A stretch of 64,000 bases of DNA, taken from assembly GCF_045037415.1 (NCBI RefSeq), contig NZ_CP173438.1; one strand, given 5' to 3'. Source of the stretch: Escherichia coli. GTDB taxonomy: Bacteria; Pseudomonadota; Gammaproteobacteria; Enterobacterales; Enterobacteriaceae. The position numbers were made by a program, and so were the translations under genes. Numbering within the stretch: the first letter of the stretch is position 1; each line of letters begins with the position of its first letter. The notes beneath the pieces are model-generated. The model was not told the DNA's origin, did no database searches, and worked only from the letters and a program-made list of their open reading frames with translations. This document shows positions 5,502 through 7,067 of this stretch, in pieces.

Positions 5502-5506
5502 GTGAA

Positions 5507-5545
5507 AGCACCTCAAAAGTTCGCCTCTTGAGGTGCTAATTTTAG
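5507..5545. terminator. hairpin terminator after btuR, also facing the islet operon
   Basis: AGCACCTCAA-(10 nt)-TTGAGGTGCT followed by AATTTT. Confidence 0.5.
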
Positions 5546-5557
5546 ATACTGAATGGC

Positions 5558-5866
5558 TTAATTAGCCACGGCAAAATTAAGAAGAGCTTGAATTTTATTC
5601 AAGTGTGCGGGATATTCCATATCATTATCCGCATTGACGTCTTCAATAAACAGTATTAATTCAGTGATCAAATCATTAGCATCTTCATAACTAATACCCG
5701 TCAGTTCTGGTGACGTTTGCGAGCCATAATTAATTGTCAGATTATTCATTACTGACAAAACCAGAATAAAATATTTGTGACATATATCGCAGGTTGTTCG
5801 GTTTCCTAAGGCATAGTACAGCATATTGAGCAATGCCAGTATTCGTCGATTTTGCACATCGTTCAT
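5558..5866 (-). CDS. hypothetical cytoplasmic protein (102 aa), second gene of low-GC islet
   Basis: ORF with AGGAGG RBS 5 nt upstream of ATG; starts 9 nt after the lipoprotein stop; no family recognised. Confidence 0.5.
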   Translation of the reverse strand: MNDVQNRRILALLNMLYYALGNRTTCDICHKYFILVLSVMNNLTINYGSQTSPELTGISYEDANDLITELILFIEDVNADNDMEYPAHLNKIQALLNFAVAN

Positions 5867-5875
5867 AATGACCTC

Positions 5876-6898
5876 CTATAACATAACTCCGCTGGCAATA
5901 AGAAGTTTTGCCAGCTCCTCTGACGCCTGTAGACCACTAATAACTTGAGAACGAAGGATCTCATTTCTACGCTCTAAATCCGCTTTTGAAAGAGATTTAT
6001 TAGAGTATAAATCTTGTAGATGATTTCCTTTATCCATGAAGGCATTAATAGCTTGTATTGCTGGAGCCGCCGGATCAGATGAACGCAATCTGCTTTCATT
6101 AAGATTAATTACTGCACTCAAAAATTCCTGCCTGCTCTTTAATGTCTTAAACTCTATATTTTTAGTATTTGCCTGGGCCTTATTGTAGTAATAAAAATTA
6201 TTACTGATGTTCGCATAATTATTCCGATCCATTTGCTGCTGTTTCGTTGCTATATCATCGAGTAAATCTTGTAAATTTCTTTGAAGTCGAGGCCAGTCAC
6301 TACCTACCGTTTTACCAACATTTTCTGATTTAATCTTCTCTTTGTATAATCCATTGAAATATTGAACTAAATCTTTAACAGCCACAACTGACTTAGTCAA
6401 TTCTTCACCTTCTGAAAGGCCAAGTAGTTTTTGGGCGTTGTTTGCGTGATCGAGCGCCTGATTAAGTAATATAATTTGTTTACTATCCTCAACATCCATA
6501 CCCACCGTCAACAACTCCACATAGGAACTCATACTGTTAACGACCTCAAGTGAAGCCAGTAGTTTTTGTTTTTCTGTTGTTGCCAATTGAATTTTAGTAA
6601 TGTCTTTATACGATGTTTTGCCCCCTTTCTCTGATTGCAAACATAAGGACTCTTTATTAGTATTATTTTCCATAATCGTTTCGTAATCAGGTCGCAATGC
6701 ACAATCCGGATTAGTCGCATAAAAATTAACAAGAAAGTTTTCACGAGAAGCATAGTATTGTTTAAAGAAACTTGCATTCGCCGCAACCGCCTTGTTACCC
6801 GCAGTAATAACAGTTTCAGCTTGTTCATTCTTCAATGCTTCGGTTGCACAACCTGAAAGCATTAACAGCGATAGAAATATTCCACTATATCTAATCAT
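5876..6898 (-). CDS. hypothetical lipoprotein (340 aa), first gene of low-GC islet
   Basis: Signal peptide MIRYSGIFLSLLMLSGC with lipobox LSGC; GAGGTG RBS; helical Asn/Lys-rich composition; absent from recalled K-12 btuR-rluB interval. Confidence 0.6.
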   Translation of the reverse strand: MIRYSGIFLSLLMLSGCATEALKNEQAETVITAGNKAVAANASFFKQYYASRENFLVNFYATNPDCALRPDYETIMENNTNKESLCLQSEKGGKTSYKDITKIQLATTEKQKLLASLEVVNSMSSYVELLTVGMDVEDSKQIILLNQALDHANNAQKLLGLSEGEELTKSVVAVKDLVQYFNGLYKEKIKSENVGKTVGSDWPRLQRNLQDLLDDIATKQQQMDRNNYANISNNFYYYNKAQANTKNIEFKTLKSRQEFLSAVINLNESRLRSSDPAAPAIQAINAFMDKGNHLQDLYSNKSLSKADLERRNEILRSQVISGLQASEELAKLLIASGVML

Positions 6899-7027
6899 AA
6901 CCCACCTCTTGACGTTGAGTTTATCTCAGATAATTAAATAGTAATGTGGCTATTCCCTGGCATTATTCATAAGCAAGTATGAAATTAAATTAAAATACTG
7001 CGACTATTTATCATACTTCAAATGAAG

Positions 7028-7050
7028 AAAAGGCCCCGCAGGGCCTTTAT
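7028..7050 (-). terminator. rho-independent terminator downstream of rluB
   Basis: AAAGGCCCCGCAGGGCCTTT hairpin with flanking A/T runs. Confidence 0.55.
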
Positions 7051-7067
7051 TTAATACTTAACTTAAA

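What the first reader, a model, noticed from the sequence alone, without database searches (positions are those of the whole stretch)
5502..7067. Low-GC two-gene islet (lipoprotein plus small partner) inserted in the conserved btuR-rluB interval
The surrounding genes follow the K-12 order as I recall it, which has no genes between btuR and rluB. Here about 1.5 kb of markedly AT-rich DNA carries a tightly coupled operon: a 340-aa lipoprotein (lipobox LSGC, helical and Asn/Lys-rich) followed 9 nt later by a 102-aa cytoplasmic protein with a strong AGGAGG RBS. Neither matches a family I recognise. Compact horizontally acquired lipoprotein-plus-partner pairs are typical of toxin/immunity, surface-exclusion or defence modules.
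Basis: partly seen in the sequence, partly recalled or inferred. Interest (0 to 1): 0.6.

Follow-up and report, generated by a model that had tools for sequence, protein, structure and literature searches.

The report
Uncharacterised lipoprotein-plus-partner operon, ancient and polymorphic
The AT-rich stretch between btuR/cobO and rluB is a real two-gene operon of an undescribed family (an outer-membrane lipoprotein and a small helical partner); it is not a recent insertion but an old, highly polymorphic resident of this site that K-12-like E. coli lack, and its function is unknown.

Summary
Window 5502-7067 has about 36% GC and carries two coupled minus-strand genes. One encodes a 340-aa lipoprotein (lipobox LSGC, Cys17). 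The other, 9 nt downstream behind AGGAGG, encodes a 102-aa protein.

Both genes are under purifying selection (dN/dS 0.07-0.23). Neither protein matches Pfam, NCBIfam, PADLOC, PHROGs or any solved structure by sequence.

"Inserted islet" is only partly right.
- 1234 of 5426 complete E. coli genomes carry the pair, always at this site. The rest have a 39-bp gap.
- The pair sits in the same interval in E. albertii, E. whittamii and some Citrobacter.
- There are no repeats, att sites or integrase at the edges.
- At least three allele lineages, about 71% identical in DNA, predate the Escherichia species splits and recombine. One sharp edge falls at lipoprotein codon 66.

Remote homologues (18-26% identity) are always followed by a downstream gene, in all but one case a roughly 100-aa ORF. 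One lies in a P2-like prophage moron site, one in an integrative island, and others in ordinary chromosomal contexts.

The function is untested. My best guess, at about 0.35, is an accessory envelope-protection module of the exclusion type. Envelope physiology, toxin/immunity and abortive infection remain open. Interest is moderate.

The parts
5507..5537 (.). Hairpin AGCACCTCAAAAG / CTCTTGAGGTGCT between the convergent cobO and partner genes. It is the likely two-way terminator.
   Evidence: Inverted repeat I2 and a terminator-like hit. It is conserved in every occupied allele, while K-12 has a different hairpin.
5558..5866 (-). Partner gene encoding a 102-aa acidic protein (pI 4.4), predicted to be a four-helix bundle. 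No transmembrane segment was found. Invariant residues in the close family are C26, C29, H30 and H88.
   Evidence: (pLDDT 84.8). dN/dS is 0.07-0.17.
5867..5878 (-). Coupling junction. It holds the lipoprotein stop codon TAG (5878-5876), the Shine-Dalgarno sequence AGGAGG (5877-5872) overlapping that stop, and a 9-nt spacer before the partner ATG (5866-5864).
   Evidence: Read directly from the sequence.
5876..6898 (-). Lipoprotein gene (340 aa). The signal peptide and lipobox occupy codons 1-17 (Cys17 at 6850-6848). Residue +2 is Ala, which by inference means outer-membrane sorting. The mature protein is all-helical. C66, C86 and Y126 are invariant across the whole remote family.
   Evidence: dN/dS is 0.10-0.23.
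5500..6700 (.). Hyperdivergent allelic block, 53-82% DNA identity per 100-nt bin between the two E. coli allele classes. It runs from the cobO stop codon to about codon 66 of the lipoprotein. The peak pN/pS of 0.6-0.76 falls at codons 76-105.
6899..7028 (-). Conserved 5' regulatory region. It contains the ribosome-binding site GAGGTG (6908-6903), the palindrome TTCATA-N6-TATGAA (6983-6966) and a TAGTCGCAG block. It is about 97% identical among Escherichia alleles, and blocks of it are kept in Citrobacter.
   Evidence: The stringent sigma-70 scan found no site here.
7029..7048 (-). rluB terminator hairpin AAAGGCCCTGCGGGGCCTTT followed by a T run. It separates rluB from the pair's own promoter region.

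Best explanation
What is shown. The segment is a bicistronic, translationally coupled operon of an undescribed family.
- Gene 1 encodes a lipoprotein. Ala at +2 implies Lol sorting to the outer membrane (inferred).
- Its mature part is a helical protein with no conserved catalytic-type residues and two family-invariant cysteines. I read it as a non-enzymatic protein with a C66-C86 disulfide (inferred).
- A hypervariable stretch follows at codons 76-105.
- Gene 2 encodes a 102-aa acidic four-helix bundle with no detectable export signal.
- The operon is an old occupant of the rluB-cobO interval in Escherichia and some Citrobacter.
- 23% of complete E. coli genomes keep it, as at least two of three or more ancient, recombining allele lineages. 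K-12-like lineages have no trace of it.
- Related cassettes (a lipoprotein followed by a downstream gene, usually a roughly 100-aa ORF) occur sparsely across Proteobacteria and in Chlorobiaceae-like metagenome contigs. Some of them are cargo of a P2-like prophage or of an integrative island.

What is inferred (mechanism). I think the operon most likely works as an accessory envelope-protection module of the exclusion type.
- The lipoprotein would sit at the outer membrane and bind or mask the entry route of a variable external agent, such as a phage or bacteriocin, or less likely a host factor.
- Its variable region would track that agent.
- The co-translated cytoplasmic partner would act as a helper, such as a holder/chaperone, regulator or antidote.

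The anatomy and evolutionary history are well supported. The function is a guess, and the confidence value given refers to the function.
For: - Real genes under selection.
- Lipobox, and cysteines invariant across remote homologues.
- No conserved polar catalytic-type residues across family alignment A3. Only C17, C66, C86 and Y126 are invariant.
- Presence/absence polymorphism with 1234 of 5426 genomes positive, always one copy per genome except in one.
- Allele lineages about 71% identical, against flanks 86-98% identical. E. coli allele 2 is about 96% identical to the E. whittamii allele. The window allele is closest to the E. albertii allele.
- A sharp mosaic edge and a hypervariable stretch with pN/pS up to 0.76.
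- A homologous pair in Buttiauxella agrestis lies between P2 gpS-like and gpV-like genes. The lipoprotein matches at E 6.8e-28 and the partner at hhalign E 2.5e-6. That junction is one of three known P2 moron sites (PMC6823313).
- A remote pair in Raoultella lies in an island with AlpA, an integrase, a transposase, putAbiC and HicB.
- Another remote pair lies beside VapBC, Fic and a Y1 transposase.
- The DNA is strongly AT-rich in every host, yet shifted towards the host's GC content: 36-37% in Escherichia and 41-45% in Citrobacter.
Against: - There is no experimental evidence.
- Neither the pair nor six remote homologues match PADLOC.
- No relatives were found in INPHARED phages or in IMG/VR contigs. 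The phage link therefore rests on one prophage type.
- In Escherichia the pair sits among housekeeping genes, not in a defence island.
- Remote homologues L022 and L028 also sit among housekeeping genes.
- The promoter region is conserved and carries a palindrome, which suggests ordinary regulated physiology.
- Known exclusion lipoproteins (T5 Llp, Cor, TraT; from my own knowledge) are single, much smaller proteins with no cytoplasmic partner.
- The role of the partner is not explained by any data.
Confidence: 0.35

Rival explanations
1. It is an ordinary, dispensable envelope-physiology or host-interaction lipoprotein operon, for example a periplasmic helical binding or sensor-like protein. 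In this reading the allelic diversity reflects relaxed constraint, host immune pressure and recombination rather than conflict with phages or bacteriocins.
For: - The chromosomal position is fixed across genera, and the window-E. albertii divergence matches the flanks.
- The regulatory region is conserved and carries the palindrome TTCATA-N6-TATGAA.
- Remote homologues sit in housekeeping contexts.
- The weak Foldseek neighbours are periplasmic helical-bundle proteins. Automatic annotation names them imelysin-like, PilJ/NarX-like or TolC family (the query model was of low confidence).
- There are no defence-library hits.
Against: - The pair is absent from 77% of E. coli.
- The allele lineages are older than the species splits.
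- Some homologues are prophage or island cargo.
- The DNA is strongly AT-rich, as horizontally acquired DNA tends to be.
Confidence: 0.3
2. It is a toxin-immunity or competition pair. The lipoprotein would be, or would deliver, a toxin, and the small acidic helical partner would be its cytoplasmic immunity protein. The architecture would be analogous to the Myxococcus SitA/SitI lipoprotein toxins.
For: - The gene order is lipoprotein followed by a small acidic (pI 4.4) helical protein, tightly coupled.
- The alleles are polymorphic.
- Some homologues lie next to toxin-antitoxin genes in islands.
Against: - No toxin domain is recognisable, and no conserved catalytic-type residues occur across the family.
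- The most variable part of the lipoprotein is internal (codons 61-300), not C-terminal.
- That variable part is uncoupled from the partner. EcU1 and L021 lipoproteins are 66% identical while their partners are 91% identical.
- No outer-membrane exchange machinery is known in E. coli (own knowledge).
Confidence: 0.12
3. It is a two-component abortive-infection system. The outer-membrane lipoprotein would sense envelope attack, and the four-helix-bundle partner would act as a membrane-disrupting executioner like MLKL 4HB, plant CC or HeLo domains.
For: - The partner model is confident (pLDDT 84.8).
- HeLo-like and RPW8 entries also appear in the Foldseek AFDB list, though not significantly (E 0.5-0.9).
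Against: - There is no way for a periplasmic lipoprotein to contact a cytoplasmic protein without a transmembrane component, and the Escherichia cassette has none.
- There are no PADLOC hits.
Confidence: 0.08
4. It is decaying remnant DNA with no present function.
For: - IS1 insertions occur in several genomes, and IAI39 has a frameshift.
- The pair is lost from most E. coli.
Against: - dN/dS of 0.07-0.23 holds over deep divergence.
- Both ORFs are annotated as present in nearly all listed carriers.
- The ribosome-binding sites, terminator and promoter blocks are conserved.
Confidence: 0.03

Closest known systems
Prophage morons at the P2 S-V (orf30) junction, and prophage or plasmid exclusion lipoproteins (T5 Llp, phi80/N15 Cor, F TraT; the latter from my own knowledge)
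   Same: It is AT-rich accessory DNA encoding an outer-membrane lipoprotein. A detectably homologous two-gene cassette sits exactly at the P2 S-V moron site in Buttiauxella.
   Different: - There is no sequence similarity to any phage record.
- The lipoprotein is far larger (324 mature residues) and helical.
- It comes with a coupled cytoplasmic partner.
- In Escherichia it is chromosomal and not inside a prophage.
- Exclusion activity has not been tested.
Myxococcus SitA/SitI polymorphic lipoprotein toxin-immunity cassettes (own knowledge)
   Same: A lipoprotein gene is followed by a small cytoplasmic protein gene, the alleles are polymorphic, and some copies are associated with mobile elements.
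   Different: - There is no toxin domain.
- The variable region is internal and not linked to the partner allele.
- No outer-membrane exchange system is known in E. coli.
Allelic, hyperdivergent fixed loci of E. coli, such as the hsd 'immigration control region' or surface-antigen loci (own knowledge)
   Same: The pair occupies one chromosomal site between conserved genes, with presence/absence variation, deeply diverged alleles shared across species, and mosaic recombination edges.
   Different: The gene content is unrelated and its function is unknown.
Periplasmic helical-bundle lipoproteins (imelysin-like, 4HB sensor-like)
   Same: The length is about 330-350 aa, with an N-terminal lipobox and an all-helical prediction. 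Weak Foldseek neighbours carry these automatic names.
   Different: There is no Pfam or NCBIfam profile match for any of 24 family members. The query model was of low confidence (pLDDT 48.5), so the fold assignment is not reliable.
MLKL 4HB / plant CC / fungal HeLo four-helix bundles
   Different: Sequence identity is 6-14%, and designed bundles score equally well. There is no attached sensor or NLR domain. I take this as generic fold resemblance only.

Membership tests
Bacterial lipoprotein (signal peptidase II substrate) | A short, positively charged N-terminal region, a hydrophobic region, and a lipobox [LVI][ASTVI][GAS]C. | tested here: met
   The sequence is MIR-YSGIFLSLLM-LSGC with Cys17. 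The Cys is invariant in all 24 aligned family members.
Bacterial lipoprotein (signal peptidase II substrate) | Actual lipidation and outer-membrane sorting (no Asp at +2). | not testable with these tools
   Residue +2 is Ala, and no family member has Asp at +2. The localisation is inferred from the E. coli Lol rule.
Known anti-phage defence systems (PADLOC-DB v2) | A profile match to a component of a described or candidate system. | tested here: not met
   Both window proteins gave 0 families at E<=1. Six remote homologues and their neighbours gave only noise hits.
Any curated protein family (Pfam-A, NCBIfam, PHROGs, PDB sequences) | A significant profile or sequence match. | tested here: not met
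   Searches gave nothing below E 1e-3 apart from one isolated HEPN_DZIP3 hit (8.5e-4) in 1 of 24 members.
Genomic island / integrative mobile element | An integrase or transposase, flanking direct repeats or att sites, or a tRNA target. | tested here: not met
   Similarity to the empty site ends at the cobO and rluB stop codons. There are no flanking repeats and no recombinase.
Prophage moron (P2 S-V site cargo) | A location between conserved phage genes inside a prophage. | tested here: not met
   This is met only for the Buttiauxella homologue. The window copy lies between the cellular genes cobO and rluB.
Polymorphic toxin-immunity pair | A recognisable toxin domain, with the variable toxin part co-varying with the adjacent immunity gene. 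| tested here: not met
   No toxin domain was found. The central variable region is uncoupled from the partner allele: EcU1 and L021 are 66% identical in the lipoprotein and 91% in the partner.
Polymorphic toxin-immunity pair | Toxicity of gene 1 that is neutralised by gene 2. | not testable with these tools
   This needs expression experiments.
MLKL/CC/HeLo membrane-disrupting four-helix bundle | A specific fold match above that of generic helical bundles, plus an activating partner domain. | tested here: inconclusive
c-type cytochrome (CxxCH) | A CxxCH motif in an exported protein. | tested here: not met
   The motif C26-x-x-C29-H30 is present in the close family. No hydrophobic signal sequence was found, and the motif is absent from the Buttiauxella homologue.

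The most novel reading that the evidence does not exclude
The pair is a new two-component envelope-level anti-phage system. An outer-membrane lipoprotein with a hypervariable sensing region would work with a cytoplasmic MLKL/CC-like four-helix-bundle effector or antidote. The system would be maintained in Escherichia as a trans-species balanced polymorphism at a fixed site and be spread elsewhere by P2-like prophages and integrative islands.
Probability: 0.1. Interest if true: 0.75.

Novelty: new variant of a known kind. Interest (0 to 1): 0.45.

Why it matters
About a quarter of complete E. coli genomes make, or can make, an outer-membrane lipoprotein that no database describes. Many of the carriers are human clinical isolates.

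The locus combines three features:
- a fixed chromosomal address;
- presence/absence variation;
- allele lineages older than the Escherichia species.

These features are typical of genes caught in a long-running conflict with phages, bacteriocins or the host.

If the pair protects the envelope, it adds a new architecture to the exclusion and defence repertoire: a large helical lipoprotein with a coupled cytoplasmic partner. It would also give a simple marker and a possible surface target in clinical lineages. If it does not, it is still a well-defined family of unknown function, and a cloning test in K-12, whose site is naturally empty, is straightforward.

Tried and rejected
- **Lipoprotein structure.** The AlphaFold2 model from a 12-sequence alignment reached only pLDDT 48.5. 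The Foldseek AFDB50 run on it returned the protein's own family plus 16-18% identical proteins of the same length. Their automatic names disagree (TolC family, PilJ/NarX-like, imelysin-like). I did not use this as fold evidence.
- **Circular profile comparison.** The hhalign comparison of partner alignments A4 and A6 gave 96.6% probability, but both alignments contained the L008 sequence. Redone without overlap, there was no detectable similarity. Only the Buttiauxella partner is demonstrably homologous.
- **CxxCH as a haem c site.** Rejected: no hydrophobic export signal was found, and the motif is not conserved in the Buttiauxella homologue. A structural C2H2 zinc site (C26, C29, H30, H88) remains possible but was not tested.
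- **Twin-arginine or Sec export of the partner (N6-R7-R8).** Considered unlikely. Hydrophobicity is low, helix 1 is confidently packed in the bundle, and the RR pair is absent from the Buttiauxella homologue. It is not excluded.
- **Plasmid hits.** They lie in records that carry chromosomal genes (CP054249.1 has the trp operon and prophage genes) or are of chromosome size (4.9 Mb). I take them to be chromosome sequence filed as plasmids, not true plasmid copies.
- **Phage collections.** tblastn against INPHARED and three IMG/VR scans found nothing.
- **Rfam.** Scanning the islet gave only noise. The stringent sigma-70 scan found no promoter upstream of the lipoprotein gene.
- **Literature.** Searches for the RefSeq protein accessions and for btuR plus rluB found nothing relevant.
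Full report
**1. Observation**

- Two minus-strand ORFs fill the interval between cobO (btuR, 4911-5501, plus strand) and rluB (7943..7068, minus strand).
- The first is a 340-aa ORF at 6898..5876. It starts MIRYSGIFLSLLMLSGC, with lipobox LSGC and Cys17.
- The second is a 102-aa ORF at 5866..5558.
- The lipoprotein stop codon TAG overlaps an AGGAGG Shine-Dalgarno sequence, and 9 nt separate the stop from the next ATG.
- GC falls to 0.35-0.38 across the interval, against 0.51-0.57 in the flanking genes. 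This is the lowest-GC kilobase of the 64-kb window.
- A K-12-derived genome has only 39 bp between cobO and rluB.

The ORFs are not chance ORFs. Across orthologues of 54-86% amino-acid identity, dN/dS is 0.10-0.23 for the lipoprotein and 0.07-0.17 for the partner. That is purifying selection, though about ten times weaker than on cobO and rluB, which give 0.00-0.04.

**2. What the proteins are**

Neither protein matches Pfam, NCBIfam, PADLOC or PHROGs at a meaningful level. Neither matches any PDB sequence, even with family profiles.

The word-indexed search of 5.8 billion proteins found only 26 clusters for the lipoprotein and 15 for the partner. All of those that carry a name are from Escherichia, E. 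albertii or Citrobacter.

A full HMM search of 1.84 billion cluster representatives found 59 proteins with E<=0.001.
- About three dozen are lipoproteins of similar length, 324-357 aa. Those I aligned are 16-26% identical to the window protein.
- The named members come from Buttiauxella, Raoultella, Klebsiella, Rahnella, Pantoea and a Chlorobiaceae metagenome-assembled genome.
- Across this wide family only four residues are invariant: the lipobox Cys, two further cysteines (C66 and C86) and Y126.
- Two invariant cysteines in an exported protein suggest a disulfide. The lack of conserved polar residues argues for a binding or scaffold protein rather than an enzyme. Both points are inferences.
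- No member has Asp at +2, so by the E. coli Lol rule the protein should go to the outer membrane. This is also an inference.

The AlphaFold2 model of the lipoprotein is almost entirely helical but unreliable, with pLDDT 48.5.

The partner gives a confident four-helix bundle, pLDDT 84.8.
- In Foldseek against AFDB50, only its own family is significant.
- It is acidic (pI 4.4) and has no segment hydrophobic enough for a transmembrane helix.

**3. Distribution and history**

A sensitive blastn with the islet alone finds it in 1234 of 5426 complete E. coli genomes, as a single copy in all but one.
- 775 genomes are at 95% identity or above to the window.
- 459 genomes are at only 72-74% identity. 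This is a second allele class, seen for example in IAI39 (where the lipoprotein gene is frameshifted) and in strain U1.
- In all four E. coli carriers whose annotation I examined, the pair lies between cobO and rluB.

The same interval holds the pair in several other lineages:
- E. albertii;
- E. whittamii;
- a further Escherichia lineage, L021;
- Citrobacter, at 54-57% amino-acid identity.

Every close relative whose context I could read sits in this interval.

Similarity between occupied and empty sites stops exactly at the two stop codons. There are no flanking direct or inverted repeats, no att-like sequence and no recombinase. Occupied alleles share their own terminator hairpin (5507-5537), and K-12 has a different one.

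Divergence shows that the locus is old.
- Window against E. albertii gives dS of 0.82 for the lipoprotein and 0.45 for the partner. The flanks give 0.96 (cobO) and 0.62 (rluB), so this allele has diverged along with its flanks.
- The two E. coli allele classes differ by dS of about 1.07 for the lipoprotein. The partner is saturated. rluB between the same two genomes gives only 0.11.
- In DNA identity there are three lineages: window plus E. albertii (84-87%), U1 plus E. whittamii (96%), and L021. They are mutually about 71% identical, while the flanks are 86-98% identical.
- The alleles therefore predate the species splits, or have moved between species through recombination in the flanks.

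The locus is a mosaic.
- The promoter region and lipoprotein codons 1-60 are nearly identical among Escherichia alleles.
- Divergence starts abruptly near window 6700, at about codon 66. It runs to the cobO stop codon and tails into the 3' half of cobO.
- U1 and L021 share the last 40 or so lipoprotein codons and the partner (91% amino-acid identity). Their full-length lipoproteins are only 66% identical, and the difference lies in the centre of the protein.
- The most variable stretch, codons 76-105, reaches pN/pS of 0.6-0.76. No window exceeds 1.

GC is 36-37% in Escherichia and 41-45% in Citrobacter, where the flanks are 58%. The genes have drifted towards the host composition but remain far below it.

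'Recently inserted islet' is therefore not the best description. Long residence with loss in K-12-like lineages, or gain and replacement by homologous recombination, fits better. I could not reconstruct the ancestral state formally.

**4. Context of remote homologues**

I read eight contexts. In all of them a lipoprotein of about 330-357 aa is followed closely by another gene, and in seven that gene is a roughly 100-aa ORF with no obvious signal sequence.
- Escherichia and Citrobacter: partner of 102-105 aa.
- Buttiauxella: 96 aa.
- Raoultella and Klebsiella type: 96 aa.
- P0058: 107 aa.
- P0099: 107 aa.
- Chlorobiaceae-like contigs: 107 aa.
- P0070: followed instead by a 269-aa membrane protein.

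Only the Buttiauxella partner is detectably homologous to the window partner, with hhalign probability 89% and E 2.5e-6. For the others the conservation is of position and size only.

The settings are mixed.
- The Buttiauxella pair lies in a P2-like prophage between a gpS-like tail-completion gene and a gpV-like baseplate gene. This is one of the three known moron sites of P2-like phages (PMC6823313).
- The Raoultella pair lies in an integrative island with AlpA, an integrase, a transposase, putAbiC and HicB.
- P0058 lies beside VapBC, Fic and a Y1 transposase.
- P0099 and the Chlorobiaceae-like copies lie among housekeeping genes.

No relative was found in INPHARED phages or in IMG/VR contigs. 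No remote member matches PADLOC or NCBIfam.

**5. Mechanism**

Shown:
- a coupled operon;
- a lipoprotein with invariant cysteines and a hypervariable region;
- a small acidic helical partner;
- ancient, recombining alleles at a fixed site;
- occasional carriage by mobile elements.

Inferred, at about 0.35: the operon is an accessory envelope-protection module of the exclusion type. The outer-membrane lipoprotein would bind or mask the entry route of a variable external agent, and the partner would serve as a cytoplasmic helper.

The main rival, at about 0.30, is a dispensable envelope-physiology or host-interaction lipoprotein. The fixed position, the conserved promoter with a TTCATA-N6-TATGAA palindrome and the housekeeping contexts of remote homologues favour that reading.

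Toxin-immunity (about 0.12) is weakened in two ways. There is no toxin domain, and the variable lipoprotein core is uncoupled from the partner allele.

An abortive-infection reading (about 0.08) rests on the MLKL/CC-like fold of the partner. That fold match is generic, and the Escherichia cassette has no transmembrane link between the two proteins.

Decay is unlikely given the selection signal.

**6. Comparison with known systems, and novelty**

The closest known things are:
- prophage morons and exclusion lipoproteins;
- lipoprotein toxin-immunity cassettes;
- allelic hypervariable loci such as hsd.

The pair passes the sequence test for a lipoprotein. It fails the tests I could run for known defence systems, curated families, integrative islands, polymorphic toxins and c-type cytochromes.

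RefSeq already annotates both genes as hypothetical proteins, so their existence is not new. The family, the cassette architecture and the population pattern appear undescribed, and I found no literature on them.

I rate it as a new variant of a known kind, namely an accessory envelope lipoprotein module, and of moderate interest at 0.45. It is a clean candidate for experiment, but nothing here would astonish a specialist unless a defence function is shown.

Noticed in passing
window 6966-6983 (minus strand), within 6899-7028: A perfect palindrome, TTCATA-N6-TATGAA, and a TAGTCGCAG block lie upstream of the lipoprotein gene. The region is about 97% identical among Escherichia alleles, and the palindrome and block are largely kept in Citrobacter. 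The palindrome is a candidate operator for an unknown regulator.
   Followed up: partly
window ~6700, and 5000-5500: A sharp recombination edge falls at about codon 66 (Cys66) of the lipoprotein. On the other side, divergence tails into the 3' half of cobO (85-94% identity, against 98-100% further out). cobO dS between the two E. coli allele classes is 0.42, against 0.11 for rluB.
   Followed up: yes
E. coli genomes H1-H4, H74, H113; L001 3474-4474: Several carrier genomes have IS1 inserted within the islet region. In IAI39 the lipoprotein gene is annotated as frameshifted. Occasional inactivation therefore occurs.
   Followed up: no
window 18793-18978: Rfam matches to isrK and the C4 antisense RNA lie directly after the trp operon. 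This marks a prophage immunity region. The next roughly 35 kb alternates between low GC (19-24 kb) and high GC (31-49 kb), as a prophage would.
   Followed up: no
window 55751-55940, 56640-56889, 61412-61587: Rfam also finds the sRNA STnc100, two tRNA genes and a sok antitoxin RNA (hok/sok-type locus) further along the window.
   Followed up: no
L024 7533-7751 (also L025 315-533): A 72-aa ORF lies about 250 nt upstream of the Raoultella lipoprotein homologue. Its sequence (…LLAAFAKDPLKVAKEEVG…) looks like the NHLP/Nif11 leader peptides of ribosomally made natural products. It is absent from the Escherichia locus.
   Followed up: no
L012 4719-5960; L028 3864-4910; L015 2171-2980: Some remote cassettes carry a third gene encoding a membrane protein. 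Two lie upstream: 413 aa in L012, and 348 aa with a TIG domain in L028. One lies downstream: 269 aa in L015. Such a protein could provide the transmembrane link that the Escherichia pair lacks.
   Followed up: partly
window 8156-10051 (minus strand): yciQ (DUF2207, 631 aa) ends in a long glycine-rich tail (…GGGAGGGAGGGGGGGW). Citrobacter and E. albertii loci with the pair lack yciQ between rluB and yciO.
   Followed up: no
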